Origin: an uncultured Candidatus Saccharibacteria bacterium
Lineage (GTDB): Bacteria; Patescibacteriota; Doudnabacteria; UBA920
DNA: 64,000 bases
Reading direction: 5' to 3'
NCBI GenBank assembly: GCA_964532425.1
Contig: CAZHIA010000001.1
Location: forward strand, 44,889-108,888
Shown here piece by piece: positions 4,662 to 36,622 of the stretch; within the stretch, counting starts at the first letter, position 1; every line of letters begins with the position of its first letter. The notes under the pieces were generated by a model that had not been told where the DNA came from, ran no database searches, and was given only the letters and a program-made list of their open reading frames with translations. Both the position numbers and the translations under genes were made by a program.

Positions 4662-4665
4662 AAAT

Positions 4666-4694
4666 AACCCCGCACCATTTGGTGCGGGGTTTTC
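4666..4694. terminator. bidirectional rho-independent terminator
   Basis: CCCCGCACC-attt-GGTGCGGGG flanked by A and T runs; lies between convergent genes. Confidence 0.7.
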
Positions 4695-5611: not shown

Positions 5612-5733
5612 TACAACCTAAGCGTTATCGCGAGTCCGGCGAGAGCACTGGCTCTATGACCCGGCGGCAACCCTGAGTAGCCCGGCTATTCGATGGGTGC
5701 CCCATCCAGCCCATTAGTAATGGGAAAGATGAT
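5612..5733 (+). ncRNA. SAM-I (S-box) riboswitch
   Basis: TTATCgcGAG...GGCAACC...GGGTGCCCCATCCAGC...AAAGATGA matches the S-box consensus blocks. Lies directly upstream of metK. Confidence 0.75.
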
Positions 5734-5744
5734 TTGATTTTGCG

Positions 5745-5776
5745 CTCAAACCCTTTCCCGCGAAAGGTTTTTTGTT
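5745..5776 (+). terminator. riboswitch expression-platform terminator
   Basis: CCCTTTC-ccgc-GAAAGG followed by TTTTTTG, abutting the metK start. Confidence 0.6.
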
Positions 5777-5777
5777 T

Positions 5778-6812
5778 ATGTACCAGAGTAAGTTCTATAC
5801 GGCCGAGAATGTGGCCCTCGGGCATCCGGATAAGGTCTGTGATCAGATCTCGGACGCTATTTTAGATGAGATTCTCCGGCAGGATTCAAACGGCCGCGTG
5901 GCCATGGAAGCGTTCGGCAGCCACGGGCTTTTGGTTCTTGGTGGCGAGGTTACGGCTGAGGCTGAGGTTGATTATGAAGCTGTAGCCCGCCGGGTTTATA
6001 GCGATATCGGCTACCATGAGCCGCTGGAGGTGTTAGTTCATATTGCTTGCCAGTCGCCGGATATTGCCCGCGGCGTGGATACGGGCGGCGCTGGTGATCA
6101 GGGAATTATGTACGGCTATGCCACGGACGAGACGCCGGAATACTTGCCGACCGGCGTGGTGCTGGCCAGGCAACTGGCGCAAGGACTGGCGGAACTCGGC
6201 CGCAGCCAGCCGGGGATTGGGCCTGACGGTAAGACGCAAGTAACTATGGAGAACGGCATGGTGTGCCGCGTGCTGGTCAGTTGCCAGCACGGCGAAGGTA
6301 TGGAACTGTCCGAGCTGCGGCAGATGCTCGTCGAGCGAGTAATTGTTCCGGTCTGCGGCAGGTTGCAGGACGGGCAGATCCTGGTCAATCCGACGGGCCG
6401 GTTCGTGCAAGGAGGGTTTGCAGCGGATGCGGGCCTGACCGGCCGCAAAATTATGGTTGATACCTATGGCGGGCTGGCGCCCCATGGCGGCGGCGCATTC
6501 TCCGGCAAGGATCCTTCCAAGGTCGACCGCAGTGCCGCGTACCTGGCGCGCTTAGCCGCCAAACATATGGTATCTGCCGGGCTGGCGCACGAGTGCCTGG
6601 TGTCGGTGGCATATGCCATCGGCCAAGAGCAGCCGCTTATGGTTTCCGCGGTTTCGGAGAGCGGGCAGGATCTTTCGGCGGCAGTGAAGCGGCATTTCGA
6701 TTTCAGGCCGCTGGCAATTATTGAACGGTTAGGCTTGCGCCGGCCAATCTATCGACAAACTGCCTGCTTCGGCCATTTTGGCCGGCCGGGTTTGCCGTGG
6801 GAAGAGTTATAA
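5778..6812 (+). CDS. metK: S-adenosylmethionine synthetase
   Basis: GHPDKVCDQISDA and GGGAFSGKDPSKVDRSAAY motifs. Start taken at ATG 5778; the track calls TTG 5772. Confidence 0.9.
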   Translation: MYQSKFYTAENVALGHPDKVCDQISDAILDEILRQDSNGRVAMEAFGSHGLLVLGGEVTAEAEVDYEAVARRVYSDIGYHEPLEVLVHIACQSPDIARGVDTGGAGDQGIMYGYATDETPEYLPTGVVLARQLAQGLAELGRSQPGIGPDGKTQVTMENGMVCRVLVSCQHGEGMELSELRQMLVERVIVPVCGRLQDGQILVNPTGRFVQGGFAADAGLTGRKIMVDTYGGLAPHGGGAFSGKDPSKVDRSAAYLARLAAKHMVSAGLAHECLVSVAYAIGQEQPLMVSAVSESGQDLSAAVKRHFDFRPLAIIERLGLRRPIYRQTACFGHFGRPGLPWEEL

Positions 6813-9759: not shown

Positions 9760-10052
9760 AAATTACAAATAATATCCAAATTTCAAATTCGAAATTCTGC
9801 AGATTGGATATTGAATATTGTCTCCCTCCAGGAGATCTACCGCAGGTACGAGGTATTAGGAAGTAGTCTCAAAACCTCCTTATGGCGTCATTCTGAGTCC
9901 TGAGTTCGACGAAGGACGAAGAATCTCATGATCGGTAAGAGATACTTCGGTCGTCTGACTCCCTCAGTATGACGCCGGAGAGGGAGTATCCTGGTTTTGA
10001 GACCGCTTCTAGAATAAATCTTAAAATTTGATGCTTGGGATTTGGAATTTGA
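9760..10052 (+). mobile_element. MITE-like element, copy 1 (~293 bp) with a long internal hairpin (GGCGTCATTCTGAGTCCTGAG...CTCAGTATGACGCC) and AT-rich CAAATTTCAAATTC-type termini
   Basis: About 95% identical to the reverse complement of 44737-45032; a partial core copy lies at 37694-37866. Confidence 0.8.
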
Positions 10053-10453
10053 ACGGCGGGCAGCTGCCGCTTGCCCCTACGGGGACCAGGTCTTTGCAGC
10101 GTAGGGGCCGCCGACCCTGCCTGCCGGCAGGCAGGAGGCGTCCTCTCGCACAAAGCCTAAATCCTAAATTTTAAATCCTTAATCCGTATTGATAGCCAGT
10201 CTCTTCAAAACCCGGTACAATGAGAGCAGGCTGTGACTTAATTTTTCTAGTTTCTATTTTTCTATTTATTATGTTGGCAATTATTTTCGGCCTTGTTGCT
10301 ATCGGAATATTCGTCCTGTTTCGGGAGGCGTTTTCGCATGCACCGACTTCGCCGCAGCGGCCAAAGCCGGCCGCTTCGGGTGATGCCCTCGTTCGCTTCG
10401 GCCTCGGGCAGCGCCGCAAGAGTCAGCGCCGATTGCATATAGAAAAGCCGGCC

Positions 10454-11755
10454 ATGGAGTTTAATCCCGAGAACAGCCGGGCTTTGGATTTGCTCGAGAA
10501 TTCCCGCCGCAATATTTTTCTGACCGGGCGGGCCGGGGCGGGTAAATCTACCTTGCTCATGTACTTTCGCGCTACTACCAAAAAGAACGTGGCTGTGGTC
10601 GCGCCGACCGGTGTGGCTGCCATTAACGTGCAGGGCCAGACCATTCATCGCTTCTTCCGCTTTAAGCCGGATATTACGCTCGACAAAGTGCCGAAGTATT
10701 TGGACCGCGACCGGGATCTCTATAAAGAATTAGACACACTGGTCATAGACGAGATCTCCATGGTGCGGGCTGATCTGCTCGATTGTGTGGATGCGTTCTT
10801 GCGTATGCACGGACCGGAACCGGGCAAGGTTTTCGGCGGCGTGCAAATGGTGTTCATGGGAGACTTATACCAATTGCCGCCCGTGGTCAAGGACGAGGAA
10901 GAGGAAATTTTCCAGACGCACTATCGCACGGAGTTTTTCTTTTCCGCCAAGTGCCTGCAGCAGACCACGCTCATTCCGCTGGAACTGACCCGCGTGTACC
11001 GCCAGAGCGATGAAGGCTTTAAGAAAATTTTAAACGACATCCGCGACGGTACAGTCAGTGACCAGGACTTGGCAGTTTTGAACTCCCGCGTTGACCGCGA
11101 TTTTTCGCCTGCACAGGAAGAGGGTATTGTCCGCGTATGGTTGGTACCGACGCGCGCCCAAGCCGCGGAAATTAATGGCTGGCACATGGAACATCTGCCT
11201 GGCGCCATGCGCATGTACCACGGTTCGGTAGAGGGTAGGTTTTCCGAGCGCGACATGCCAACACCGTTGGAATTGGAGTTGAAAGTCGGTACGCAGGTTA
11301 TGCTGCTCAATAACGACAGCAAGGGGCGCTGGGTTAACGGCGACGTGGCCCGGGTGGTAGATTTGCGCCAGGATTTTATCCGCGTCAAGTTCGACGACGG
11401 CACGTTCGATGATGTCGAACGCCATACCTGGGACGCGTTCCGTCATACGCTCGAAAAGGGGAGTAATAAGATTGTCGCGGTTTCCGACGGCAGTTTTACC
11501 CAGTTTCCGGTCAAGCCGGCTTGGGCGTTAACCATCCACAAGTCGCAAGGTAAGACGTATGATCATGTGGCCATCGATTTAAGCCGCGGTACTTTTGCGG
11601 CCGGCCAGGCTTATGTGGCCTTGTCGCGCTGCCGCACGCTTGAAGGTCTTATTTTAAAAACCCCGCTGCGCCGCCATCACGTTATGATAGACAAGGAAGC
11701 CGCGGAGTTCATGAAGGTGGTATCATTTTTAGCGGAGAAGGGACATATCCCCTAA
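10454..11755 (+). CDS. PIF1-family 5'-3' DNA helicase (paralog 1)
   Basis: Walker A GRAGAGKST and the C-terminal TIHKSQGKTYDHVAIDLSRGTFAAGQAYVALSRCRTLEGL motif. Start set at 10454 by alignment with paralog 2. The track's start at 10220 adds a doubtful TM segment that overlaps an AT-rich repeat. Confidence 0.8.
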   Translation: MEFNPENSRALDLLENSRRNIFLTGRAGAGKSTLLMYFRATTKKNVAVVAPTGVAAINVQGQTIHRFFRFKPDITLDKVPKYLDRDRDLYKELDTLVIDEISMVRADLLDCVDAFLRMHGPEPGKVFGGVQMVFMGDLYQLPPVVKDEEEEIFQTHYRTEFFFSAKCLQQTTLIPLELTRVYRQSDEGFKKILNDIRDGTVSDQDLAVLNSRVDRDFSPAQEEGIVRVWLVPTRAQAAEINGWHMEHLPGAMRMYHGSVEGRFSERDMPTPLELELKVGTQVMLLNNDSKGRWVNGDVARVVDLRQDFIRVKFDDGTFDDVERHTWDAFRHTLEKGSNKIVAVSDGSFTQFPVKPAWALTIHKSQGKTYDHVAIDLSRGTFAAGQAYVALSRCRTLEGLILKTPLRRHHVMIDKEAAEFMKVVSFLAEKGHIP

Positions 11756-12033: not shown

Positions 12034-12951
12034 TCAGTCTTCCAGATCAAGCAGGGCTACAATGCGGTTGTCGAGGGACGGGTGCGTGGAAAGCAGGTCG
12101 TCCGGGTTCGGATCAGCGGTACAGAGGAAGCCGAACGCAGCGGCTGTGGCAGCTGAAGCTATGTGCGGTCGCCGGCAGACCTTTTTTAAGGCCGACACCA
12201 GAGGCCGCCCCGAACCCATGATGCGCGCGGAGGTTGCATCTGCCGCATATTCGCGCTGCCGCGAAACGAACATCTGCAACACCACGGCCAGGCCTCGTCC
12301 GACGAGGTAGAGGAGTACGCCTATCAACAAGGCGACAATCAGGGCCCATCCGCTGCCCTTGCGGTCGTCATCGTCGCTCGAACCTCCATACGGCGAGATG
12401 CGAAGCAGGAGCCAGCCGGTGAAGGCCATCATCATGACCGAGATGGTCAGCGCAGTGGAGACTAGGATGTCCTTGTTCACGATGTGGCCGGCTTCGTGCG
12501 CCATGACCGCGGAGAGCTCTTCATCGGTCAAGCCGCTAATGATTCCTTTGGTGGCGGCAACGGCCGAAAAGTAGGGGATGCCCCAACCAAAGGCCATGGC
12601 GTTCATGCCATCATCAGGAATGAGGTAGATGCGCGGGCAGGGCTTGGCCAGCATCGGAGTAGCGCGCAATACCGCATCCCAGAGCTTGGGATTTTCCTCC
12701 CGGACGTAAATCCGTTTGGCTCCCAACGAGATGACCACCAGCCATTCGTTGAATACGAGCATGAGTACGCCAATAATGCCGGCGCCCCACGCGCCATACC
12801 GGAAGTAATTCAGGTAGCCGTGGGCAAAGGTTGCCGTGAGCCAGTAGCACAGCCACCAGAACAGGCCTATGAGCCCGACAGCCAGAACGAACGAGAGCCA
12901 GCTGCGAACCCAGACAGCGAGTACGCGTTCCAAGCGCACCTTTGTACGCAT
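12034..12951 (-). CDS. M48-family zinc metalloprotease (HtpX-like)
   Basis: HEXXH motif (MAHEAGHIV) and TM helices. Start at 12951, preceded by AGGAGG; the track's longer N-terminus is rejected. Confidence 0.75.
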   Translation of the reverse strand: MRTKVRLERVLAVWVRSWLSFVLAVGLIGLFWWLCYWLTATFAHGYLNYFRYGAWGAGIIGVLMLVFNEWLVVISLGAKRIYVREENPKLWDAVLRATPMLAKPCPRIYLIPDDGMNAMAFGWGIPYFSAVAATKGIISGLTDEELSAVMAHEAGHIVNKDILVSTALTISVMMMAFTGWLLLRISPYGGSSDDDDRKGSGWALIVALLIGVLLYLVGRGLAVVLQMFVSRQREYAADATSARIMGSGRPLVSALKKVCRRPHIASAATAAAFGFLCTADPNPDDLLSTHPSLDNRIVALLDLED

Positions 12952-13022
12952 TGTGTATTTCCTCCTGAAGTTGAATAGGTACGATTCTTGCAAACTAGGT
13001 ATAGTACTAGATTTTGTCTTAT

Positions 13023-13051
13023 TTGTCAAGAGTATGAAAGAGGCATACAAT
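13023..13051 (+). promoter_or_regulatory. sigma70-like promoter upstream of radC
   Basis: TTGTCA, 17-nt spacer, TACAAT. Confidence 0.55.
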
Positions 13052-13072
13052 AGGGGCAAGAAAAGTTATATT

Positions 13073-13119
13073 TGTGTCATTCCGGAATCCGCCTCTTGCG
13101 GATATCCGGAATCTACACA
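13073..13119. repeat. hairpin repeat (family A): TGTGTCATTCCGGAATCC...GGATATCCGGAATCTACACA. Other copies at 16109-16156 and 24387-24455.
   Basis: Three copies sharing the GTCATTCCGGAATCC arms with variable loops. Confidence 0.75.
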
Positions 13120-13138: not shown

Positions 13139-13801
13139 ATGCCAATCAAAATGTTAGAGAGAATGTTACAACCACGCGAACGGCTCATGAAGTACGGTCC
13201 GGGGCGGCTTTCTGATGCCGAACTTCTCGCAATCATGCTCCGCACCGGGCCCAAAGGGTGCAATGTGGTTGAGCTTTCAAAGAAGCTGCTGAAAAAATAT
13301 CCGGACGCAAAACTGGCCCAAGCCAGCGTCCAGGAATTGTCCGAAGTACACGGCCTTGGCCCAGCCAAGGCCTGCGAGCTGTCTGCCTGTTTTGAACTGG
13401 GCAGGCGGATGCTCAAGGACAAGCAGTCCGTGCTCATTCTTTCCCCGCGCGAGGTGTGGGATCAGATGCAGGATATTCGCAACCACAAGAAGGAACACTT
13501 TGTCGTGTTCTTTTTGGACACCCAGAACCAGGTGGTCAAAAGGGAAGTGGTGAGCATCGGCACGCTGAATGCCAGCCTCATTCATCCGCGCGAGGTTTTC
13601 GAGCCAGCAGTGCGCTTTCTGGCCGCACATGTTATTGTCTCACACAATCATCCGTCAGGAAGTTTGGAGCCCTCGGACGAGGACCTGCGCATCACTAAGC
13701 GTCTTTGTGATGCGGGAAAGCTTTTGGGCATTGAACTGCTCGATCATGTCATTGTCACCGCATCCGGTTATGCAAGCTTCAAGGAGAAAAATCTGTTATG
13801 A
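13139..13801 (+). CDS. radC: RadC-like JAB-domain protein (UPF0758)
   Basis: N-terminal HhH region and JAMM motif region ...HVIVSHNHPSGSLEPSDED. Confidence 0.85.
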   Translation: MPIKMLERMLQPRERLMKYGPGRLSDAELLAIMLRTGPKGCNVVELSKKLLKKYPDAKLAQASVQELSEVHGLGPAKACELSACFELGRRMLKDKQSVLILSPREVWDQMQDIRNHKKEHFVVFFLDTQNQVVKREVVSIGTLNASLIHPREVFEPAVRFLAAHVIVSHNHPSGSLEPSDEDLRITKRLCDAGKLLGIELLDHVIVTASGYASFKEKNLL

Positions 13802-13812: not shown

Positions 13813-13843
13813 CCTATCCATCCTATCCATCTTATTCATCCTA
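13813..13843. repeat. period-9 tandem array (CCTATCCAT x3-4) directly after the radC stop and upstream of the PIF1-2 start
   Basis: cctatccat cctatccat cttattcat cc... Confidence 0.8.
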
Positions 13844-13865
13844 GAGGCCTTATTCCCTTTATTCC

Positions 13866-15968
13866 ATGTCCGAAGACAATTCTCCTCTTTACACGAAATC
13901 CTATTACGAAGAAGTCCGTAAAATCCACCCCCGCATGGGCAAGAAGTGGACTGCGGACGAAGACCAACAGCTTAAGAATGCCTACCTGCAATTCAAGGCG
14001 CAGCCGTCGGCGAATTTTGACGTGTTCCTGCAGGAACTGGTCGAGCAGTTCGGCAGGGCTTCGGGCGGCATTAAGGCAAGGTTAGCTAAATATTTTGAGG
14101 ACGTCCCGGGTTGGGACTATGGCCGCGATGCGTTCCGGCAGGAACAGCTCAATAAGGAGGCAGAGTCAGCCATTCCCAAAGACGACGAGGAGGTGCTGGT
14201 TCGGGCGTACCGCTTGTATGAAGAATCAAAAAATGAGACGTACATGGCCTTTTTACGGCGCATGTCGGAACGCCTTGGAAATATTGAGGGGAGGCTTATA
14301 ACGCACCGTTTATCGCAATTGGTCGGCGAGGTAAAAAAGTACAATAAGGAAGATGTAGGGGCGGCCAGTGGCCGCCCGCACCCAGGGAGTGATCGCGAAA
14401 AAAATACTCCCGACGTCTCAGATATCGACTTTTCTGGCAACCTTGAAGCAGGCGAGGCCTTGCGCCTTATGGAGCAGACCCGGGAAAATCTGTTTTTGAC
14501 CGGAGAGGCTGGAACCGGGAAATCGACCCTGCTGCAGTTCTTCCGCTATACCACCCAAAAGAACGTGGTGGTGCTCGCTCCGACCGGGGTGGCTGCTTTG
14601 AATGTGGAAGGCCAGACCATTCATTCGTTTTGCGGGTTCGGTCCGGATATTACGGTGCACAAGGTCAAGAAGCTAGGCCCATGGGCGCCCAAGCGCAAGC
14701 TGCTTAATAAGCTCGATGCGATTATTATAGACGAGATCTCCATGGTCCGCGCTGATCTGCTTGATTGCGTGGACAAGTTTTTGCGCATGAACGGGCCGAC
14801 TGGGACGCAAGCCTTTGGTGGCATTCAAATGATTTTCATCGGTGATCTTTATCAACTCCCGCCAGTATCCGCCGAAAGGCCTGTTGGCCAATCAGGCGGA
14901 CCCGCCACAATGTCCCGTTTTGGCGGGGCTTTGGGCGGGGAGAAGGGTTTTTATGGTGATCCTCTCCTGTCCCAATACGCCTCTCCTTATTTTTTTGATG
15001 CCCTTGCATATAAGCAGACGAAGTTCCACCACATCGCCCTCAAGCAAATGTACCGGCAGAAGGACCGGGTGTTCATCGACGTGCTGAATGCGGTGCGCAA
15101 CAATGCAGCCATGCAGGAACATTTGACCGTCTTAAACCAGCGCGCGCAGACTGCGGGTGCCAAGTTCACGTTCGAGAAATTTGCAATTTATTTAACTACT
15201 ACGAACCAACGCGCGCGGCAAGTGAATAATTTTTTCATTGAGCGCTTGAAGGGAGAGCTGAAGACTTTTCAGGGGCGCACTGCCGGAACCTTTGAGGACC
15301 GAGAGCTGCCCACAGACTTGAATTTGCAAATCAAGGTCGGCGCCCAAGTCATGATGCTCAACAACGACCGCAAGAAGCGCTGGGTCAATGGCACTATGGG
15401 GAAGATAGTTGCCATAGGTTTTGGTAATACCGATGTTGAGCAGGCCCGCGGCCTGCCCTCCCGGATGGAGAATGGTAGTGTGGTTTCTTCTCCCCAGGCG
15501 TGGGAAGATGCCCCGCAGGGGCAGAGAGGTCGAACCCTGGAAGCTGAAGATCAATCTCCCGAACTCACCTACGAACCCATCTCTCCATATGACTACCGCC
15601 CGCAATCTTCTGGCATGGTGGTAACCGTGGAATTGGAAACAGGGGAGACCGTAGACGTGACGCCGTTCACCTGGGAGATGCACAAGTTCGTGCTCGACAA
15701 GGAAACGGAGAAAATAGACATTCAGACCACGGGCACGTTCACGCAATACCCGTTCAAGTTGGCTTGGGCCGTGACCATACACAAGGCCCAGGGCAAGACG
15801 TTCGACAAGGTGTATGTGGATCTTTCCACCGGCACCTTCGCGCACGGCCAGCTCTACGTTGCCCTCTCGCGCTGCCGCACTCTGGAAGGTCTCTTCCTCC
15901 GCCGTCCCATCACCCCCGCCGACATCCTCCTCGACCAGCGCATTGTCCAATTTCTGAATTCGTTATAA
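13866..15968 (+). CDS. PIF1-family DNA helicase (paralog 2) with an ~200-aa N-terminal extension containing a Myb/SANT-like motif, plus two internal insertions
   Basis: Core ~65% identical to paralog 1 (GEAGTGKST ... TIHKAQGKTFDKVYVDLSTGTFAHGQLYVALSRCRTLEGL). N-terminus has GKKWTADEDQQLKNAYLQF...GGIKARL. Confidence 0.8.
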   Translation: MSEDNSPLYTKSYYEEVRKIHPRMGKKWTADEDQQLKNAYLQFKAQPSANFDVFLQELVEQFGRASGGIKARLAKYFEDVPGWDYGRDAFRQEQLNKEAESAIPKDDEEVLVRAYRLYEESKNETYMAFLRRMSERLGNIEGRLITHRLSQLVGEVKKYNKEDVGAASGRPHPGSDREKNTPDVSDIDFSGNLEAGEALRLMEQTRENLFLTGEAGTGKSTLLQFFRYTTQKNVVVLAPTGVAALNVEGQTIHSFCGFGPDITVHKVKKLGPWAPKRKLLNKLDAIIIDEISMVRADLLDCVDKFLRMNGPTGTQAFGGIQMIFIGDLYQLPPVSAERPVGQSGGPATMSRFGGALGGEKGFYGDPLLSQYASPYFFDALAYKQTKFHHIALKQMYRQKDRVFIDVLNAVRNNAAMQEHLTVLNQRAQTAGAKFTFEKFAIYLTTTNQRARQVNNFFIERLKGELKTFQGRTAGTFEDRELPTDLNLQIKVGAQVMMLNNDRKKRWVNGTMGKIVAIGFGNTDVEQARGLPSRMENGSVVSSPQAWEDAPQGQRGRTLEAEDQSPELTYEPISPYDYRPQSSGMVVTVELETGETVDVTPFTWEMHKFVLDKETEKIDIQTTGTFTQYPFKLAWAVTIHKAQGKTFDKVYVDLSTGTFAHGQLYVALSRCRTLEGLFLRRPITPADILLDQRIVQFLNSL

Positions 15969-15970
15969 AT

Positions 15971-16033
15971 CCTATCCATCCTATTCATCCTATCCATCTT
16001 ATCAATCCTATCCATCTTATAAATCCCATTTCA
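15971..16033. repeat. period-9 tandem array (7 units: CCTATCCAT, CCTATTCAT ...) directly after the PIF1-2 stop
   Basis: Seven consecutive 9-bp units; this array is the source of the spurious NPIHPIHPIH ORF. Confidence 0.85.
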
Positions 16034-16180
16034 CCCCTTCTTCCCCTTGGCTTCCATTAACCCCCCTTTACCCCCTTAAACCCCTTTTCACCCTTTCTTC
16101 CCTCACTCTGTGTCATTCCGGAATCCGAGTGCAGCCGAGGATGTCCGGAATCCAGTTTATTTCCCCATAAATTCTCTTAT

Positions 16181-16208
16181 TTGACAGGAATTTACCCGGT
16201 GCTATGAT
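16181..16208 (+). promoter_or_regulatory. near-consensus sigma70 promoter
   Basis: TTGACA, 16-nt spacer, TATGAT. Confidence 0.6.
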
Positions 16209-16214
16209 GGAAAA

Positions 16215-16302
16215 AACAACAAACATGCCAGTCGAGTCTCCCGTAAATAAAATAATAACTTAAACCAAAGCTCCAAGCCGCCGTTTTCGGCGGCTTTGTT
16301 TT
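16215..16302 (+). ncRNA. candidate small RNA (~85 nt) defined by a promoter and terminator
   Basis: Consensus promoter at 16181-16208. Terminator GCCGCCG-ttttc-GGCGGC followed by TTTGTTTT at 16277-16302. Contains only a 19-codon ORF with no RBS. Confidence 0.4.
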
Positions 16303-16489
16303 CCGGGCCTGCTCTCCTTCTACCGAAGGTCCAACGTAGCCTCGTGCGAAGTTGGAATAGGAGGAGTGCCCGCCGACTCGTCCGCCGTAGCTTTAGCGAA
16401 GGGGGAAGGCGGGGGAAGTGGTACGGGGTCTGTAGTGCCCCTCTCCCTTTCAAGGGAGAGGTAGGGTGAGGGTATTAATTAAAAATCCT

Positions 16490-16840
16490 ATGACAAAAAT
16501 TCAAAAAATCTGGCTCTCTATCTTCATTGCCATGTTTGCATTGCCTGAGATTTTATGGAGTCCAGTAATAAATCTGATTTACGAATTTTTACAAAATACT
16601 AATAAAGTTCAACCCTGGCGTGATAATTTTTTGATGAATAGCGATAACATTGCCTGGCTTAGTGTAATATACCTTATTCAATTGGTGGGATTGCTGGGGT
16701 GTTTGATGTTGATTATTTCACTTAAGCCAAAGAATATAGCTATGTGGTTAGTAAACTCGGTATTGATAATATGCAGTCTCACAGTTGCATTCTTGTTATT
16801 TGCCTCATTGACAATTGGGGGTCATGGAATTGGTTTCTAA
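16490..16840 (+). CDS. hypothetical small membrane protein (AT-rich gene)
   Basis: Three or four hydrophobic helices. Low GC compared with the flanks. ATG 16490; the track calls GTG 16466. Confidence 0.5.
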   Translation: MTKIQKIWLSIFIAMFALPEILWSPVINLIYEFLQNTNKVQPWRDNFLMNSDNIAWLSVIYLIQLVGLLGCLMLIISLKPKNIAMWLVNSVLIICSLTVAFLLFASLTIGGHGIGF

Positions 16841-16883
16841 CATACTCTAAAGATGCCCGTTAAATATAAGTATTCTAAATTTT

Positions 16884-19718
16884 ATGAGAGTTAGTAAACT
16901 TAATAGGTGTTTATTAGTGTTGGGCTGCTTAGCTCTACTAGGCGGTCAAGTAAGAATAGCGGCGAATGCTACTAGTGCTATTGTAGTCTGTGACCCAGGC
17001 TATAATGCTGGTAACTCTCCTATACAAGGTATTCCTACATATGATTACGGAACGGACGGAATGGTCCGTTTTCATTTTACCTTGGATGGTAATGGCTGGG
17101 CTCCCTCAAATAATTTTGTGGCCGTGTATGGAGAGAATTGTGAGTACCTTTATACAAAAGGTTATACGTACGCAAGTTCAGGTAGTATTCCGCAAGGTGT
17201 AATTCATCTTATGGTGAAAGCGCAAGAAGTAACACCAGGAGGCGGGTGGTATGTGTTCACAGCTTATGACGAGGACACAAACGAACCGGTAGGACTGGGA
17301 GGTATGCCGACCCAAGTAAACGAGCCGTTTGTTAGCTTTGCAATTTTACAGAACCCTAGCTACTACGTGTACAACGGAGCCAAAAGCCCTGCTGTGCCAG
17401 TGAGAGATCCGACACGAATGATTTCTAAGACCCCGGTATTGATTGTGCCAGGGGTGATGGGTACTGAATTAAAGATGGAGGGTGAGTTACTTTGGGTTGA
17501 TCTAGATAGAATGTTGGGTGATGTTGGTGACCAGTTTATGGATAAGTTGCAATTTAAGGAAGATCTTCAACCCGAAAATGAGAGTGTGTCACCAGATCAA
17601 GTAATTGCGCAAAAACCGTTATTTGATTACACGGGCTCTTTGGCTGATGAATTTAAAACCCAAGGGTATACCGAAAATCAGGATCTCTTTACTTTCCCAT
17701 ATGACTGGCGTTACGGGGTAACTGGAGTCGTAGATACTACAACAGGTAAAACAACGGTCGACTTACTGCAGCAAAGAATTGAGGAAATTAGTCAGCAAAC
17801 AGGAAGTTCTCAGGTGGATGTAATCGCACATAGCACTGGTGGCTTATTGGTGAAAAAGTATGTTATGGATCACCCGGATTCTCATCGGATTCGTAAGGCT
17901 GTATTTGTAGGTGTGCCAAACGTCGGCGCTCCCAAAGCCATAAAAACTCTTTTGATGGGGGATGGGTTTGGTATCCCTTGGCTTGCCGACGGAGAAATGC
18001 TAAAACTGTCTCAAAATCTTCCGGTTGTTTATGACCTCATGCCTAGTGCTCAATATTACTCTGTTCATACTAGCCCTATAAACATCCTTTCGGGTAAGGT
18101 TTTTGTTTCCGAGATGAAAAATCTTTCTTATGATGAATCCATTTCTTATTTGACAGAAAAAGGATTGAACATTTCTGCAATAACACAATCGCAGTCATTG
18201 CATTCAAGATCGTTCGATAGTTATGACATGAGGACGGCAGGTGTGGATGTATATAATATTGTCGGGTGTAAATCAGGGACTGTGACGCAAGTGTTGGACT
18301 ACGAACATCAAGACGGATCCCATATTAGATATGACGTGTATGAAGAAGGGACAGGTGATGGAACAGTACCGCTCGAGAGTTCAACTTATTTGCCAGTAAA
18401 CGATGACCATAAATTTTATGCGTTAAAGACAGAGCATGCGAAAATGTTGAGCCAGGATGGTGTTCGCCAGACAATTGTTAATGTTGTGTCCGGAGCCAAT
18501 CTTGCAGTCAGTGATAAAGCTGTTACCTCAGACATTGGAAAGTGTAAGTTGAAGGGGAAGGCTGTGGCTATATATAGTCCAGTTGATATTCAAATTTCCG
18601 ACCAATTTGGTAATAAACTAGGACTCGCGGAGGATGGGAGTATACAAAACACAATTCCCGGTGCGGATTTTGAAATCATGGGTGAACACAAGTATGCATT
18701 TTTGCCCGATGAGGATGGTGAAGTATATTCTTTAAATTTAAAAGGTACCGGGACCGGGCTCTTTACCGTGAAAGTTGATGATATTGATGGTTCGGTGATA
18801 GGCTCAAAAATCTTTGCGAGTCTCACCGTTACCCCTTCGCTAGTGGGTACCTTGTCTTTAACTGGGGACACTAAGATGGATTTGGACACGAATAATGATG
18901 GTTCAGTGGACCAGGAACTAACACCTTCAACACTTTCAAACCCCTCCCAATCCCAAGACTATCTTCCTCCCATCTCCACCTCCACCCTTTCTGGCATTAT
19001 GGGACAGGCGGGGTTTTATAGGAGCGAGGTGGTGGTGGCGCTGAATGCGACGGATACGGTGGTGTCGGGACTTGAGGATCAGACTTCCGGTGTTTTGGAC
19101 GTGCGCTATGCGCTGGACGACCATTCATCCAATCCATCCTATTCTTCCTATGCCAGCCCTATCACTGTTTCCACCGAAGGTCCTCACACCCTCTCGTTCT
19201 ATTCCGTGGACCGGGCGGGGAATAGGGAAGCGGTGCAGACGATTAATTTTACCATCGACAAAACCGCGCCAGAGGTTTCTTTGCAGTTTGACCAGAATGC
19301 AAAGGATCTGGTTTTCAGCGGCATCGACAATTCTCCGGTCTCGGTCAGCGACAAGGACGACATTATTACCGTAACCGATCAGGCCGGCAATGCCACAGTT
19401 ATGAAGCTCAAAGACAAGAACCGCAAGCGCTCGCTGAAGGCTGAAATTAAATCCATTAGCTACAACGGGCAGGTTGCGGATCTTTCTAAGAACAGCATGG
19501 CGTTCTCCTGGGCCTATGACAGAAAGGACAAAGACAAGCTTGTCTTGCTTTCGCAAATCGTGACTGCGAAAAAAGACTACCTCGTCTCAGCCATCTACAA
19601 TGGCAAGTCTACGGTGCTGCTTGGCCGTGACGCTTCGGGCAAAATAAAGAAAACTCTCCCCGGCCTGACTCTCCTCAAAATTGCCACCTCCACCGGCGAC
19701 TTGAATTGGAGTTATTAG
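16884..19718 (+). CDS. secreted LCAT/PGAP1-like alpha/beta hydrolase, fused through an S/T/P linker to a chitobiase-C-like Ig domain and a C-terminal region
   Basis: Signal peptide. PVLIVPGVMGTELK is LCAT-like. Nucleophile elbow VIAHSTGGL. A YYSVDRAGNRE-type beta-sandwich motif. The 5' 2 kb is AT-rich and the 3' 0.8 kb is GC-rich. Confidence 0.65.
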   Translation: MRVSKLNRCLLVLGCLALLGGQVRIAANATSAIVVCDPGYNAGNSPIQGIPTYDYGTDGMVRFHFTLDGNGWAPSNNFVAVYGENCEYLYTKGYTYASSGSIPQGVIHLMVKAQEVTPGGGWYVFTAYDEDTNEPVGLGGMPTQVNEPFVSFAILQNPSYYVYNGAKSPAVPVRDPTRMISKTPVLIVPGVMGTELKMEGELLWVDLDRMLGDVGDQFMDKLQFKEDLQPENESVSPDQVIAQKPLFDYTGSLADEFKTQGYTENQDLFTFPYDWRYGVTGVVDTTTGKTTVDLLQQRIEEISQQTGSSQVDVIAHSTGGLLVKKYVMDHPDSHRIRKAVFVGVPNVGAPKAIKTLLMGDGFGIPWLADGEMLKLSQNLPVVYDLMPSAQYYSVHTSPINILSGKVFVSEMKNLSYDESISYLTEKGLNISAITQSQSLHSRSFDSYDMRTAGVDVYNIVGCKSGTVTQVLDYEHQDGSHIRYDVYEEGTGDGTVPLESSTYLPVNDDHKFYALKTEHAKMLSQDGVRQTIVNVVSGANLAVSDKAVTSDIGKCKLKGKAVAIYSPVDIQISDQFGNKLGLAEDGSIQNTIPGADFEIMGEHKYAFLPDEDGEVYSLNLKGTGTGLFTVKVDDIDGSVIGSKIFASLTVTPSLVGTLSLTGDTKMDLDTNNDGSVDQELTPSTLSNPSQSQDYLPPISTSTLSGIMGQAGFYRSEVVVALNATDTVVSGLEDQTSGVLDVRYALDDHSSNPSYSSYASPITVSTEGPHTLSFYSVDRAGNREAVQTINFTIDKTAPEVSLQFDQNAKDLVFSGIDNSPVSVSDKDDIITVTDQAGNATVMKLKDKNRKRSLKAEIKSISYNGQVADLSKNSMAFSWAYDRKDKDKLVLLSQIVTAKKDYLVSAIYNGKSTVLLGRDASGKIKKTLPGLTLLKIATSTGDLNWSY

Positions 19719-19727
19719 TCTTATACG

Positions 19728-19772
19728 TCCTATTTGTCCTATTAGACCTATCTGCCCTATAGGTCCTATTCA
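19728..19772. repeat. period-9 tandem array (5 units, GTCCTATTn-like) directly after the hydrolase stop
   Basis: tcctatttg tcctattag acctatctg ccctatagg tcctattca. Confidence 0.75.
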
Positions 19773-20463: not shown

Positions 20464-20654
20464 CCTCCCTGTTTTAAATGTAATGCAGGCTCTTGGCCTG
20501 CTTGCAGGTGCAGTACTCTCCTCCTGGGATAGGAGGAGTACCCGCCACAGGCGGGGGAGGTGGTATAGAGAAGTTGCGATGTAAATGTAGTGCAGTCCCT
20601 TGGCCTGCCTGCTTGTAGGGAACGGTTTGAAACCGTTCCCAACGGATCCAAGAT

Positions 20655-23536: not shown

Positions 23537-23798
23537 TCTGCATTTTCTCCTCTCCTTATGAGGAGAGGGATTAAGGGAGAGGTTGCAGTCACCCCCTCTC
23601 CTTGCATAGGAGAGGGTAGGGGTGAGGTTATAAACCCTCCTCTCTTTGCTCGAAGATCCAACGCAGCCTCGCGCGAAGTTGGATAAAGAGAGGGGTTAGG
23701 GGTTCCGTTGCATTTCCCCCTCTCTTTGTCTAAAGAGAGGGGTTAGGGGTGAGTTTAAAGCTAGGCACTATTTACTCGTTACTATTTACTCGTTCCCA

Positions 23799-24561: not shown

Positions 24562-27507
24562 ATGAGAATAACAGACTGCCACGCTAAATATTTTGCTTAC
24601 GAGTTGACTAAGCGGTGTTCGTCTGATAGTTTAGAAAAATTATCTTCTACTTTATCAAACGCGCAAGTCGATCTAAATCCGCACCAAATTGAAGCGGCTC
24701 TTTTTGCGTTCCGCTCACCATTATCAAGAGGTGCAATTTTAGCCGACGAAGTGGGCTTAGGCAAGACCATTGAAGCCGGTCTGGTGTTGTCCCAAAAATG
24801 GGCGGAGCGTAAACGTAATCTACTGCTAATAGTACCCTCAAGTTTGCGCAAACAGTGGAATGCGGAATTACAGGAGAAGTTTTTTTTGCCCTCGACAATT
24901 TTAGAAACCAAAACATTTAATCAGTATATCAAAGATGGAAACCTAAATCCGTTTATCCAAGAAGACAAAATAATAATTTGTTCTTATCACTTTGCTCGTT
25001 CCAAGGCGCCTTATATTAAACAGACTAAATGGGACCTGGTAGTAATTGATGAAGCTCATAGGCTACGCAATGTCTATAAGACCAGCAATAAAATCGCTAA
25101 AGAGATTAAAACTACACTGGCTGATTTTCCAAAAATCCTCTTAACGGCAACCCCACTACAAAATTCCCTTCTCGAACTTTATGGTCTTGTTAGTATTATC
25201 GATGACCATGTGTTTGGTGATTTGAAAAGCTTTAAAGCCAACTACGCAAGAGTTTCCCGGCAGCAAGATATCTACGAAAGCGAGGTCGGCTTAGTAGAAC
25301 CAAAGCAGGAGATGTTTTCAGACTTGCGGGACCGACTAAAAACTATCTGCATCAGAACGCTTAGGCGGCAGGTACTGGAATATATCAAATATACCAAGCG
25401 TATCCCTTTAACCCAGGACTACGTTCCGACTGAACAGGAAATTGAGTTATATAACGGCATGTCTGCGTATTTACAAAGACCCAGACTTTTTGCCCTACCT
25501 TCCAGCCAGCGCCAACTCATTACTCTTATTTTACGCAAATTACTTGCTTCTTCGTCTTTTGCCATTGCTAGCACACTCAATGGCCTGGTATATAAATTAT
25601 CTAAACTGATTGAAGAAGCCGAGAAGCAGAAGGCTTCAGCTCAAGATGCTGATATTGCTGGAATTGACCAAAACTTTGAAAACTTCGAAGATGTCTCTGA
25701 TGAGTGGATCGATGATGAAGAAGAGGAAGAAACCGGGGCTGATAAGAAGAGTGTTATTTATACCGAAGAAGAGATCGCTTTAATGAAGGAAGAAAAAGCT
25801 GAACTGGAAAAATATCGGGAATTGGCAAAAAAAATCTGGACCAATTCCAAAGGGGATGCTCTGCTGATTGCTCTGCAAAAAGGCTTCGAGATGACCGAAG
25901 ATCTTGGAGCCAAGAAGAAGGCCATCATTTTTACAGAATCGACAATAACCCAAAATTACCTGTTAAACTTGCTTTCTGAAAATGGTTACAAAGATAAAAT
26001 TGTACTCTTTAATGGCTCCAATAATGATGACAAGTCAAAGCAGGTTTATGCCGACTGGATCAAAGCCAATAAGGACACGGATAAAATAACCGGCTCTAAG
26101 ACGGCTGATATCCGCGCTGCGCTGGTAGAGTATTTCCGTGATGATGCGGAGATTATGATAGCAACTGAAGCTGCCGCTGAAGGTGTTAACCTACAATTCT
26201 GCTCCCTGCTTATAAATTATGATTTGCCATGGAATCCTCAAAGGATTGAACAGCGCATTGGTCGCTGTCATCGTTATGGACAAAAGCACGACGTGGTGGT
26301 TATTAACTTCGTAAACCGTAAAAATGCCGCTGATCAGAGAGTTTACGAACTATTGGACCAAAAGTTTAGCCTATTCAAAGGTGTGTTTGGTGCAAGCGAC
26401 GAAGTACTTGGCAGTATTGAATCCGGGGTAGATTTTGAAAAGAGAATCGCTGATATTTACCAGACTTGCCGCACTGAAGAAGAGATTAATACAGCATTCG
26501 ACAACCTGCAGAAGGATATGGATGAAAGCATCCAGGACAGCCTACGGGAAACCAGGCAAAAATTATTAGAAAACTTCGATACCGAAGTACACGAAAAGCT
26601 AAAAGTTAATCTAAAGGAAACTCAGGCCTGTCTTGATACCTTTGAACACTGGCTTTGGGACATTACCAGATATTATCTCAAGGAAAATGCGGATTTCTCC
26701 GAGCATGAGTACTCATTTACCTTAAAAAATAATCCTTTCCCCAAGGAGTCTATTGACGCTGGTCCTTACAGGATTGGTAAGAATATTGAAGATGCTCACA
26801 TATACCGTCCTGGTCACCCGTTGGCACAAAGGATATTAAACCAAGTTAAATTAAAACCTATCGAGGAAGCAGAGGTTATATTTGATTATTCCAACAATCC
26901 AACCATCGTTTCAGTATTGAAACCACTGGTAGGTAAAAGCGGAGTGATGAAAATTTCTAACTATACAGTCGAAGCTTTTGAGGCCGAGGATAATATTATT
27001 GCCTCTGCTATCGATGAATCTGGAGAAGCTATTAACCCCGAGGTTGTGAAAAAACTTTTTTCTTTGTCGGCAGAACATAAGAAGTCAGCATTAGTACCGC
27101 CGGATGTTAAAACTCACCTTGAAAAAATTGAGCAGGAAACGGTTGCTGTAACATCCACTAATATTGCCGAACGCAATAGCACTTTTTTTGACAATGAAGT
27201 CGATAAACTTGAAAAGTGGGCGGACGACGTTAAAAAATCTTTAGAACTGGATCTAAAAAAACTGGATATTGAGATTAAAGCGTCCAAAACAAACGCAAAA
27301 AAAATCGTAAACTTGGAAGATAAGCTAAAAACACAGCGAGAAATTAAAGAAATGGAGAAAAAAAGGAACGAAATGCGAAAAAAGCTTTATGATGCTCAGG
27401 ATGAAGTGGAAGAAAAAAAAGAAGAACTTATAAATAAAGTCGAGGCACAATTGCACCAGAGATCGCATTTAGAACCACTATTTACGATTTACTGGAGAGT
27501 GGTTTAA
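24562..27507 (+). CDS. SNF2-family helicase (SNF2_N plus HELICc) with a C-terminal coiled-coil extension; first gene of the low-GC island operon
   Basis: LADEVGLGKTIEAG (motif I), DEAHRLRN (motif II), and ...GVNLQFCSLLINYDLPWNPQRIEQRIGRCHRYGQKHDVVVINFV (motifs V and VI). The C-terminus has heptad-like KE-rich repeats. Confidence 0.85.
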   Translation: MRITDCHAKYFAYELTKRCSSDSLEKLSSTLSNAQVDLNPHQIEAALFAFRSPLSRGAILADEVGLGKTIEAGLVLSQKWAERKRNLLLIVPSSLRKQWNAELQEKFFLPSTILETKTFNQYIKDGNLNPFIQEDKIIICSYHFARSKAPYIKQTKWDLVVIDEAHRLRNVYKTSNKIAKEIKTTLADFPKILLTATPLQNSLLELYGLVSIIDDHVFGDLKSFKANYARVSRQQDIYESEVGLVEPKQEMFSDLRDRLKTICIRTLRRQVLEYIKYTKRIPLTQDYVPTEQEIELYNGMSAYLQRPRLFALPSSQRQLITLILRKLLASSSFAIASTLNGLVYKLSKLIEEAEKQKASAQDADIAGIDQNFENFEDVSDEWIDDEEEEETGADKKSVIYTEEEIALMKEEKAELEKYRELAKKIWTNSKGDALLIALQKGFEMTEDLGAKKKAIIFTESTITQNYLLNLLSENGYKDKIVLFNGSNNDDKSKQVYADWIKANKDTDKITGSKTADIRAALVEYFRDDAEIMIATEAAAEGVNLQFCSLLINYDLPWNPQRIEQRIGRCHRYGQKHDVVVINFVNRKNAADQRVYELLDQKFSLFKGVFGASDEVLGSIESGVDFEKRIADIYQTCRTEEEINTAFDNLQKDMDESIQDSLRETRQKLLENFDTEVHEKLKVNLKETQACLDTFEHWLWDITRYYLKENADFSEHEYSFTLKNNPFPKESIDAGPYRIGKNIEDAHIYRPGHPLAQRILNQVKLKPIEEAEVIFDYSNNPTIVSVLKPLVGKSGVMKISNYTVEAFEAEDNIIASAIDESGEAINPEVVKKLFSLSAEHKKSALVPPDVKTHLEKIEQETVAVTSTNIAERNSTFFDNEVDKLEKWADDVKKSLELDLKKLDIEIKASKTNAKKIVNLEDKLKTQREIKEMEKKRNEMRKKLYDAQDEVEEKKEELINKVEAQLHQRSHLEPLFTIYWRVV

Positions 27508-27516
27508 GCAAGGTTT

Positions 27517-32889: not shown

Positions 32890-32917
32890 AAAACTGCCAT
32901 TGACAGGCAGTTTTTTG
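32890..32917 (+). terminator. rho-independent terminator
   Basis: AAACTGCC-attgac-GGCAGTTT followed by TTTTGG. Confidence 0.65.
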
Positions 32918-33109
32918 GTGATTTATACTAATATGAAATCCTTAAGGAGGATCAGAGTCAGCTTATAGGTTTGGAGGCGGTTGCCACGATTGTTCGGCAA
33001 TTGATGCTTTCATGCTATTTGACTCTGGTTTAATCCTTCGGGATTGAATCTATACTTGCTTGCCCTGGTTAACACCGGGGTGTAGTAAGCGAAAGGAGAA
33101 ACAAATAAC

Positions 33110-36561: not shown

Positions 36562-36622
36562 CCAGTGCTTATTCGCACGAATAAGCACTGGGGCGGAGAG
36601 TGGGGTGGGGTGGGAGGGGAAT

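What the first reader, a model, noticed from the sequence alone, without database searches (positions are those of the whole stretch)
16028..16302. Polypyrimidine tract followed by a promoter-terminator-defined candidate small RNA
A ~90-nt almost purely C/T tract lies on the + strand at 16028-16118, directly after the CCTAT array. It is then followed by a family A hairpin.

Next comes a near-consensus promoter (TTGACA, 16 nt, TATGAT) at 16181-16208, then about 85 nt with no credible ORF. An intrinsic terminator at 16277-16302 ends it (GCCGCCG-ttttc-GGCGGC plus TTTGTTTT).

This layout fits an independently transcribed sRNA. The pyrimidine tract could form H-DNA.
Basis: seen in the sequence. Interest (0 to 1): 0.5.

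Follow-up and report, generated by a model that had tools for sequence, protein, structure and literature searches.

The report
Promoter-terminator pair making short leader RNA
A strong promoter followed about 65 bases later by a strong transcription stop signal should yield an ~88-base RNA in an uncultured CPR bacterium, but comparison with relatives suggests it is the cut-short start of the next operon's message, not a dedicated regulatory RNA, so it is a fairly ordinary feature.

Summary
The core observation holds. The promoter at 16181-16208 (TTGACA, 16 nt, TGc-TATGAT) and the intrinsic terminator at 16275-16296 (plus U-tail) are both real signals. The window has 7 such promoters against 0.7 expected, and 14 such terminators against 0.15 expected. 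Only two promoter-terminator pairs lie within 250 nt of each other.

The predicted RNA (~16215-16302, ~88 nt) is an unstructured A/U-rich stretch followed by the terminator hairpin. It has no Rfam match, no paralog and no homolog anywhere. The organism is Doudnabacteria-like (CPR) and has no close relative in the collections searched, so conservation cannot be tested.

The "polypyrimidine tract" is only 82% C/T, and its longest pure run is 15 nt. It is a degenerate continuation of the 9-nt CCTATCCAT array. H-DNA is not supported, although a G-quadruplex motif lies on the minus strand.

Comparison of 10 homologous loci favours a different reading. In L015, with the same PIF1-to-membrane-protein gene order, an identical TGCTATGATG element directly drives the downstream gene. 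In L012, the same promoter type, AU-rich stretch and terminator lie 22 nt before the homologous gene.

Best reading (0.42): a terminated 5' leader of the membrane-protein/LCAT-like operon. Main rival: a stand-alone sRNA (0.25).

The parts
13866..15968 (+). PIF1-2 helicase gene (700 aa), the upstream neighbour. Its transcript probably ends at hairpin A or at the 16275 terminator.
   Evidence: ORF; Pfam PIF1 E=1e-26. Its paralog PIF1-1 has 233 nt of repeats between its stop codon and its terminator.
15963..16027 (.). Tandem array of 9-nt units, about 7 copies of (C/T)TAT(C/A)(C/A)ATC.
   Evidence: Similar arrays at 13813-13852, 19120-19159 and 19720-19770, and in other CPR loci (L005, L007, L033).
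16028..16107 (.). C/T-rich, G-poor tract with 9-10-nt periodicity. It is a degenerate continuation of the array. A G-quadruplex motif lies on the minus strand at 16061-16102.
   Evidence: 82% pyrimidine, longest pure run 15 nt. Periodicity. G4 motif.
16110..16152 (+). Repeat-family hairpin (GTGTCATTCCGGAATCC...GGATGTCCGGAATCC) followed by AGTTTATTT. Possibly a weak terminator for PIF1-2.
   Evidence: Fold -17.1 kcal/mol, z -1.3. Exact 17-nt copy at 13074. Same hairpin type in a Berkelbacteria locus, L033.
16181..16208 (+). Sigma-70-type promoter: -35 TTGACA (16181-16186), 16-nt spacer, extended -10 TGc (16200-16202), -10 TATGAT (16203-16208).
   Evidence: The same TGCTATGATG lies in the syntenic locus L015. 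The same TTGACA-16-TGnTATGnT design is in L012.
16215..16302 (+). Predicted primary transcript of about 88 nt: roughly 60 nt of unstructured A/U-rich RNA followed by the terminator hairpin and U-tail. The start site is inferred, not observed.
   Evidence: Fold: the only stable structure is the terminator. No Rfam family.
16225..16263 (+). 12-codon mini-ORF (MPVESPVNKIIT). Its stop codon lies 12 nt before the terminator stem. It has no Shine-Dalgarno sequence.
   Evidence: Read from the sequence (for the 19-codon version). Not conserved: the matching ATG in L015 opens only 3 codons. L012 has a 19-codon ORF that ends in the terminator loop.
16275..16302 (+). Intrinsic terminator: 9-bp stem (7 G-C), loop TTTT, tail TTTGTTTT.
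   Evidence: Its dG of -16.7 is in the range of the gene-end terminators of this window. Unique in the window.
16303..16489 (+). Stretch between the terminator and the gene start, built from genome-specific repeats. No consensus promoter was found here.
   Evidence: Repeat copies at 23651-23683, 45082-45114 and 20529-20565. No promoter with at least 9 of 12 matches.
16490..19718 (+). Downstream two-gene operon: 116-aa membrane protein (16490-16840) and 944-aa LCAT-like alpha/beta hydrolase (16884-19718).
   Evidence: Pfam LCAT E=2e-19. The gene pair is conserved in relatives.

Best explanation
The promoter at 16181-16208 is the promoter of the downstream operon (116-aa membrane protein plus LCAT-like hydrolase). 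The strong intrinsic terminator at 16275-16302 sits inside that operon's 5' leader, and it probably also ends PIF1-2 transcription.

Most transcripts therefore stop after about 88 nt, giving a short terminated leader RNA. The operon is expressed only by read-through of the terminator, that is, by attenuation, which may be leaky or conditional.

The 187 nt between the terminator and the start codon are genome-specific repeats that expanded the leader.

Shown:
- Both signals are present and statistically exceptional.
- There is no recognisable promoter between the terminator and the gene.
- The same design recurs upstream of a homologous gene.

Inferred:
- The start site (~16215).
- That read-through occurs.
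- What controls read-through. One possibility is a ribosome on the 12-codon leader ORF, whose stop codon lies 12 nt before the stem.

The pyrimidine-rich tract upstream is a decayed part of the 9-nt array, not a separate functional element.
For: 1. Signals. The promoter matches 11 of 12 positions and has an extended -10. The terminator has a 9-bp stem, 7 G-C pairs, and 7 U in the 8-nt tail. Each class is at least 10-fold enriched over shuffles, and only 2 promoter-terminator units exist in 64 kb.

2. Orientation. The unit points toward the operon, and no promoter with at least 9 of 12 matches lies in 16303-16489.

3. Synteny. In L015 (Doudnabacteria MAG), the PIF1 stop is followed by TGCTATGATG, identical to window 16200-16209. 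About 47 nt later comes the ATG of the membrane-protein homolog. There that element is clearly the gene's promoter.

4. Recurrent design. L012 has TTGACA, 16 nt, TGa-TATGCT, then 55 nt of unstructured AU-rich RNA, then an 11-bp terminator, then the ATG of a membrane-protein homolog 22 nt later. There is no room for another promoter.

5. Rarity. Only 4 such units occur in 1.24 Mb (both strands) of 80 related loci. One falling directly before this gene family by chance has a probability of roughly 0.01. This estimate is post hoc.

6. Gene pair. The membrane-protein/LCAT pair is a conserved unit, with its promoter immediately upstream in all relatives examined.

7. Genome habit. Repeats sit between stop codons and terminators elsewhere in this genome: PIF1-1 has 233 nt of them. 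This makes a shared PIF1-2 terminator plausible.
Against: - In 8 of 10 homologous loci the order is terminator, then promoter, then a short 27-47-nt leader with no terminator in it. Attenuation is therefore not a conserved trait of this operon.
- No antiterminator alternative structure was found.
- The mini-ORF is not conserved and has no run of regulatory codons.
- The leader sequences of the window and L012 are not significantly similar once the promoter and terminator are excluded. The similarity to L015 is limited to the 10-mer at the -10.
- A weak -10-like sequence next to the ATG (GGGTATTAAT, 16470-16479) resembles the promoter region of the closest homolog, L082. It could be the operon's real promoter, which would leave the upstream unit independent.
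- There are no expression data.
Confidence: 0.42

Rival explanations
1. A stand-alone, trans-acting small RNA gene. It has its own promoter and its own terminator, with a roughly 60-nt single-stranded 5' region as seed and an AU-rich stretch before the terminator. It regulates mRNAs elsewhere in the genome by base pairing. The downstream operon uses a separate weak promoter near its ATG.
For: - A strong promoter and a strong terminator lie 66 nt apart, and the pair is unique in the window.
- The layout is single-stranded 5' part, then an A/U-rich stretch, then a hairpin with a U-tail. By general knowledge, this is the layout of many enterobacterial Hfq-dependent sRNAs.
- 187 nt of repeats separate it from the next gene.
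- Most homologous operons have the order terminator, then promoter, then gene. That fits a terminator belonging to an upstream unit.
- A promoter-like GGGTATTAAT lies next to the ATG and resembles the sequence in L082.
Against: - No Rfam family matches. The best hits are terminator-driven, at 25 bits against thresholds of 45-55.
- No homolog was found in 81 related loci, in two exact-match metagenome scans or in one viral scan.
- There is no paralog in the window.
- Complementarity to the window is at or below that of shuffled controls.
- L015 and L012 suggest the promoter belongs to the downstream gene.
- Whether this lineage has an RNA chaperone is unknown.
Confidence: 0.25
2. A tiny protein-coding gene. 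The transcript is the mRNA of the 12-residue peptide MPVESPVNKIIT (16225-16263).
For: - The stop codon lies 12 nt before the terminator. This is the usual spacing for real genes in this window, which is 6-30 nt.
- The A-rich sequence before the ATG, with no Shine-Dalgarno, resembles the start regions of neighbouring genes.
- The only other promoter-terminator unit in the window (40196-40453) holds a 47-aa ORF.
Against: - Twelve codons is within chance expectation.
- It is not conserved. The equivalent ATG in L015 opens 3 codons, and the L012 ORF is unrelated in sequence.
- The 5' UTR would be only about 10 nt long.
- No similar peptide can be searched at this length.
Confidence: 0.06
3. A juxtaposition with no dedicated function. 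The terminator is simply the PIF1-2 terminator. The promoter is a relic or bystander, for example the ancestral operon promoter cut off from its gene when repeats were inserted. Any short RNA is transcriptional noise.
For: - This genome places repeats between stop codons and terminators.
- The intergenic region is a mosaic of repeat families.
- Relatives have much shorter intergenic regions here, for example about 100 nt in L015.
- No conservation can be shown.
Against: - The promoter is nearly perfect, including the extended -10. A decaying relic would be expected to drift.
- Strong promoters are 10-fold enriched over chance in this window, so most are probably functional.
- The same arrangement is seen in L012.
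Confidence: 0.2

Closest known systems
Terminator-containing 5' leaders (transcription attenuators, including ribosome-coupled ones such as E. coli pyrBI/pyrE, and leader-peptide operons)
   Same: The order is promoter, short leader, intrinsic terminator, then a co-oriented operon. A short ORF in the leader ends just before the terminator stem (in L012 it ends inside the stem-loop). The default product is a short terminated RNA.
   Different: - No antiterminator structure is present.
- The mini-ORF has no run of regulatory codons and is not conserved.
- 187 nt of repeats separate the terminator from the gene.
- The downstream genes are a membrane protein and an LCAT-like hydrolase, not a biosynthetic operon.
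- Most homologous operons lack the terminator.
Promoter/terminator-defined intergenic sRNAs (the class predicted by tools such as sRNAPredict or SIPHT; layout like enterobacterial Hfq-dependent sRNAs)
   Same: It has an orphan sigma-70 promoter, a span of about 90 nt, a single-stranded 5' part, an AU-rich stretch, and a Rho-independent terminator with a U-tail.
   Different: It belongs to no known family and shows no conservation, no detectable target and no second stem-loop. The organism is a CPR bacterium, for which a literature search here turned up nothing on sRNA biology.
sRNAs that share the terminator of the upstream gene's mRNA and have their own internal promoter (e.g. DapZ, MicL; from general knowledge)
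   Same: If the terminator also ends PIF1-2 mRNA, the short RNA would share its 3' end with that mRNA's 3' UTR and would be made from a promoter downstream of the stop codon.
   Different: The promoter lies 213 nt beyond the stop codon, after repeat elements. Nothing indicates a regulatory seed.
H-DNA-forming homopurine/homopyrimidine mirror repeats, and G-quadruplex motifs
   Same: It is the most pyrimidine-rich stretch of the window. It contains a 13-nt mirror repeat, CCCCTTCTTCCCC. A canonical G4 motif lies on the minus strand at 16061-16102.
   Different: For H-DNA, the tract is only 82% pyrimidine with runs of at most 15 nt, and 24 runs of at least 14 nt occur elsewhere in the window. For G4, PIF1 loci of relatives show no association between G4 motifs and the gene.

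Membership tests
Any Rfam RNA family | Score at or above the family's gathering threshold | tested here: not met
   The whole-window scan found only a SAM riboswitch at 5622-5735. A sensitive scan of 15900-16600 gave a best hit of 25.4 bits (STnc40, threshold 45), aligned only over the terminator.
Independent trans-acting sRNA gene | Own promoter and own Rho-independent terminator in an intergenic region | tested here: met
Independent trans-acting sRNA gene | Conservation of the unit in related genomes | tested here: inconclusive
   No homolog was found. However, the nearest relatives share only 54-60% protein identity in the flanking genes, so absence says little.
Independent trans-acting sRNA gene | Complementarity to target mRNAs above chance | tested here: not met
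   The longest complementary match in the window is 10 nt, while shuffled sequences usually give 10-12. Duplex energies against 65 start regions fall within the shuffled range. Only 64 kb of the genome was available.
Independent trans-acting sRNA gene | A discrete transcript of the predicted size | not testable with these tools
   No expression data are available.
Transcription attenuator / terminator-containing leader | Promoter, then intrinsic terminator, then a co-oriented gene with no other promoter in between | tested here: met
   No promoter with at least 9 of 12 matches lies in 16303-16489. A weak -10-like GGGTATTAAT at 16470-16479 cannot be excluded.
Transcription attenuator / terminator-containing leader | Alternative (antiterminator) structure, or a sensor domain | tested here: not met
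   The 60 nt before the terminator are unstructured, and no segment is complementary to the 5' arm of the stem.
Transcription attenuator / terminator-containing leader | Same arrangement upstream of homologous genes | tested here: inconclusive
   It is present in L012 and absent in 8 other loci. One further locus (L140) has a leader hairpin without a U-tail.
Leader-peptide attenuator | Translated leader ORF with regulatory codons, positioned to affect the terminator | tested here: inconclusive
   The 12-codon ORF ends 12 nt before the stem. In L012 a 19-codon ORF ends in the loop. There are no codon runs, the ORF is not conserved, and translation was not tested.
H-DNA-forming tract | Long, essentially uninterrupted homopyrimidine mirror repeat | tested here: not met
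   The tract is 82% pyrimidine. The longest run is 15 nt (16034-16048), which is shorter than runs elsewhere in the window.
G-quadruplex motif | Four or more runs of at least 3 G, with loops of 1-7 nt | tested here: met
   Present on the minus strand at 16061-16102. The window has 7 such motifs against 1.5 expected. Folding was not tested.

The most novel reading that the evidence does not exclude
The unit is a regulated, ribosome-coupled transcription attenuator. Translation of a tiny leader ORF that ends at the foot of the terminator (window) or inside it (L012) stops the hairpin from forming. This couples expression of a membrane-protein/secreted LCAT-like lipase operon to the cell's translational state. 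It arose or was kept in at least two distant CPR lineages. To my knowledge, and as far as two literature searches showed, it would be the first attenuation mechanism described in CPR bacteria.
Probability: 0.1. Interest if true: 0.5.

Novelty: new member of a known kind. Interest (0 to 1): 0.25.

Why it matters
Gene regulation in CPR/Patescibacteria is almost unexplored. A searchable-literature check found nothing on sRNAs or attenuators in these organisms.

If the unit is a working leader terminator, it shows two things. These reduced genomes use classical sigma-70 promoters and intrinsic terminators, and they may control a conserved membrane-protein/LCAT-like lipase pair by read-through. That pair could plausibly be involved in host-membrane interaction; this last point is my inference.

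The practical lesson is broader. An intergenic promoter-terminator pair should not be called an sRNA gene before checking whether the promoter belongs to the next gene.

As it stands, this is an untestable orphan candidate in a single metagenome-assembled genome, and its importance is modest.

Tried and rejected
- Rfam, by gathering scan and by sensitive scan: nothing. tRNA/tmRNA scan: none.
- Paralogs in the window: none for 16181-16302. Only the flanking repeats recur.
- Homologs by blastn and nhmmer in 81 loci around PIF1 homologs: none.
- Exact 22-mer from the middle of the RNA, in metagenome and viral collections: 0 hits.
- Exact 20-mer of the terminator in metagenomes: 52 hits, all unrelated generic terminators with no upstream similarity.
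- Strain variants: the only other copy (Logan SRR11567520, L001) is 100% identical. The next relatives are at most 60% identical at protein level, so no covariation analysis was possible.
- The source contig could not be fetched.
- Target search by complementarity and duplex energy within the window: at chance level. A first attempt timed out.
- Minus-strand ORF 16202-16453 (83 aa): an Arg-rich translation of repeats with no Pfam hit. Rejected as spurious.
- Remnant of the upstream gene seen in relatives (155-aa protein of L084): no similarity.
- G4 motifs as a PIF1-linked feature: no association in relatives.
- Sequence homology of the leaders: window against L015, L012, L082 and L084 not significant; L083 marginal, in low-complexity A/T sequence.
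- Literature searches for the sequencing run accession and for CPR sRNAs: nothing useful.

Full report
**What is there**

The finding lies in a 521-nt intergenic region (15969-16489). Upstream is a PIF1-family helicase gene (13866-15968; Pfam PIF1 E=1e-26). Downstream is a two-gene unit: a 116-aa membrane protein (16490-16840) and a 944-aa LCAT-like alpha/beta hydrolase (16884-19718).

The best homologs of both flanking proteins come from Patescibacteria/CPR metagenome-assembled genomes, several of them labelled Candidatus Doudnabacteria. Identity is only 54-60%. The one other copy of this DNA in the collections is a Logan contig from SRR11567520, which is 100% identical. The organism therefore has no close relative available, and tests based on conservation or covariation are impossible.

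**Checking the observation: promoter and terminator**

The promoter-like site is as described: TTGACA (16181-16186), a 16-nt spacer, and TATGAT (16203-16208). TG at 16200-16201 gives an extended -10. The match is 11 of 12.

The terminator is a 9-bp stem, AAGCCGCCG/CGGCGGCTT (16275-16296), with 7 G-C pairs and loop TTTT. It is followed by TTTGTTTT, and its dG is -16.7 kcal/mol.

Neither signal is a chance match:
- Promoter matches of at least 11/12: 7 in the 64-kb window against 0.7 in dinucleotide-preserving shuffles.
- Terminators of at least this strength: 14 against 0.15.
- Promoter followed by terminator within 250 nt: 2 against 0.

The other strong terminators mostly lie 6-30 nt after stop codons, with similar stabilities. 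The other strong promoters lie in front of genes. This genome clearly uses classical signals. The second promoter-terminator unit (40196-40453) holds a 47-aa acidic ORF.

**Checking the observation: the pyrimidine tract**

Positions 16028-16118 are 82% C/T (12 A, 4 G), and the longest uninterrupted pyrimidine run is 15 nt. Twenty-four homopurine or homopyrimidine runs of at least 14 nt occur elsewhere in the window, the longest being 21 nt. H-DNA is therefore not supported.

This is the most pyrimidine-rich 90-nt stretch of the window, and only two G occur between 15963 and 16109. The tract has 9-10-nt periodicity and continues the CCTATCCAT 9-mer array in degenerate form.

On the minus strand it forms a canonical G-quadruplex motif (16061-16102). 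The window has 7 such motifs against 1.5 expected. PIF1 loci of relatives show no G4-PIF1 association.

The 'family A' hairpin (16110-16152) has one other copy of its 5' arm in the window, at 13074. Hairpins of the same type occur in a Berkelbacteria locus.

**The predicted RNA**

With a start about 7 nt after the -10 (an inference), the transcript would span ~16215-16302, about 88 nt. Folding shows no structure other than the terminator hairpin. The first 60 nt are A/U-rich and single-stranded.

The search for relatives or a function gave nothing:
- No Rfam family reaches threshold. The weak hits align only to the terminator.
- The unit has no paralog in the window.
- It has no homolog in 81 related loci.
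- An exact scan with a 22-mer from the middle of the RNA found nothing in metagenomes or viral contigs.
- An exact scan with a 20-mer of the terminator found 52 loci, all unrelated generic terminators.
- Complementarity to the rest of the window is at chance level.

The only ORF inside the transcript has 12 codons (16225-16263, MPVESPVNKIIT). Its stop codon lies 12 nt before the stem. The minus-strand 83-codon ORF is an Arg-rich translation of repeats.

**What relatives show**

The membrane-protein/LCAT-like pair is conserved in many CPR contigs. I compared the upstream regions of 10 distinct homologous loci with the window.

Eight show the ordinary layout. There is sometimes an upstream gene's terminator, then a -10 element (often extended, TGnTAT..), then a 27-47-nt A/T-rich leader, then the ATG.

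Two loci are directly informative:
- **L015** (Doudnabacteria MAG) has the same gene order as the window, PIF1 and then the membrane protein. Its roughly 100-nt intergenic region contains TGCTATGATG, identical to window 16200-16209, about 47 nt before the ATG. There it is plainly the gene's promoter.
- **L012** has TTGACA, 16 nt, TGa-TATGCT, then 55 nt of unstructured AU-rich RNA, then an 11-bp terminator with a U-tail. Only 22 nt later comes the ATG of a membrane-protein homolog. No second promoter can fit, so that gene must be expressed by terminator read-through.

Such promoter-then-terminator units are rare. Only 4 occur in 1.24 Mb (both strands) of the 80 PIF1 loci. Finding one directly before this gene family is unlikely by chance, roughly 0.01, although this estimate is post hoc.

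A third locus, L140, carries an 18-bp hairpin without a U-tail in a 92-nt leader.

Sequence similarity between the leaders themselves is not significant once the promoter and terminator signals are set aside. What recurs is the design, not the sequence.

**Interpretation**

The most economical reading has three parts:
- The 16181 promoter is the operon's promoter.
- The terminator lies in the leader. It probably also ends PIF1-2 transcription, as the paralog PIF1-1 has 233 nt of repeats between its stop codon and its terminator.
- The 187 nt between terminator and ATG are genome-specific repeats that inflated the leader.

The ~88-nt RNA would then exist, but as a prematurely terminated leader. 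What controls read-through is unknown, and no antiterminator structure is present. One speculative possibility is ribosome occlusion by the small leader ORF. It ends 12 nt before the stem here and inside the hairpin loop in L012.

I give this reading a confidence of 0.42.

**Rivals**

- **Stand-alone trans-acting sRNA (0.25).** It fits the clean promoter-terminator layout and the usual terminator-then-promoter order of the gene family. A weak -10-like GGGTATTAAT sits next to the ATG and resembles the closest homolog, L082. It has no positive support from Rfam, homologs or target complementarity.
- **A 12-residue peptide gene (0.06).**
- **A functionless juxtaposition (0.2).** A PIF1-2 terminator with a stranded promoter.

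These readings are not fully exclusive. Under the first two, a short RNA is produced.

**Verdict**

The signals are real and a short transcript is likely. The H-DNA idea is rejected. The 'independent sRNA' label is not the best-supported reading.

It is a new instance of a known kind of feature, in a poorly studied lineage. It cannot be tested by comparison at present, so interest is modest.

Noticed in passing
window 5622-5735 (+), gene 5772-6812: A SAM riboswitch (RF00162, 55.5 bits) lies directly upstream of a SAM synthetase (metK) gene.
   Followed up: partly
window 13813-13852, 15963-16027, 19120-19159, 19720-19770; L005 2206-2275; L033 ~4635-4694: Tandem arrays of a 9-nt unit (CCTATCCAT and variants) bracket PIF1-2 and lie in and just after the 3' end of the LCAT-like gene. 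Near-identical arrays (CCTATCCGT, 8 copies) occur in other CPR genomes, for example between a promoter and a gene start in L005. Their function is unknown.
   Followed up: partly
window 13074-13115 and 16110-16152; L033 4560-4720: Hairpins with conserved feet (GTCATTCC...GGAATCC(AG)) and variable interiors recur in this genome and in a Berkelbacteria contig, next to 9-mer arrays. This looks like a CPR-wide intergenic repeat family that is not in Rfam.
   Followed up: partly
window 9804-10012 and 44772-44980 (inverted), partial copy 37780-37888: A 209-nt element is present in two copies that are 97% identical, plus a third partial copy at 79%. It has a long internal hairpin and is flanked by heptamer arrays (AATTTCA type). 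It may be a MITE-like element or a multi-copy structured RNA.
   Followed up: no
window 40196-40453 (+): This is the only other promoter-terminator unit in the window. TTGACA, 16 nt, TATGAT is followed by a 47-codon, very acidic ORF (40260-40403) and then a 9-bp terminator that could serve both strands.
   Followed up: partly
window 16316-16372 and 23640-23700: A repeated element has a conserved core (CGAAGGTCCAACGTAGCCTCGTGCGAAGTTGGA). Its outer stem differs between the two copies, but complementarity is kept (CTCCTTCTA/TAGGAGGAG against CTCTCTTT/AAAGAGAG).
   Followed up: no
window 1928-1951, 10526-10542, 14925-14947, 36602-36619, 47809-47841, 55762-55797, 16061-16102: Seven canonical G-quadruplex motifs occur against 1.5 expected from a first-order Markov model. 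Two lie inside the two PIF1 genes and one lies just after PIF1-2. PIF1 loci of relatives show no such pattern.
   Followed up: partly
window 24562-32520: A low-GC island (37-41% against about 52% elsewhere) encodes an SNF2-type helicase, an N6/N4 DNA methylase and a type III restriction Res-like helicase. It is probably an acquired restriction or defence module.
   Followed up: no
window 32895-33110 and 59278-59474: Two strong promoters are followed by long 5' UTRs of about 170-180 nt with no Rfam match. At 32900 the -35 hexamer sits in the loop of the preceding terminator hairpin.
   Followed up: no
window 45244-45263 and 45313-45336 (+): Two strong intrinsic terminators lie in tandem, about 600 nt from the nearest upstream ORF of at least 100 aa. 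They sit just after the 209-nt repeat region.
   Followed up: no
window 10220-11755 and 13866-15968: Two PIF1-family helicase paralogs lie 2 kb apart, with stretches of 70-85% nucleotide identity. A RadC gene (13139-13801) and an M48 peptidase gene (12034-13059, minus strand) lie between them.
   Followed up: no
L140 2453-2492 (also L141, L142): In another CPR lineage, the leader of the homologous membrane-protein/LCAT operon carries an 18-bp hairpin without a U-tail, 8 nt before the start codon (fold z-score -6.9).
   Followed up: partly
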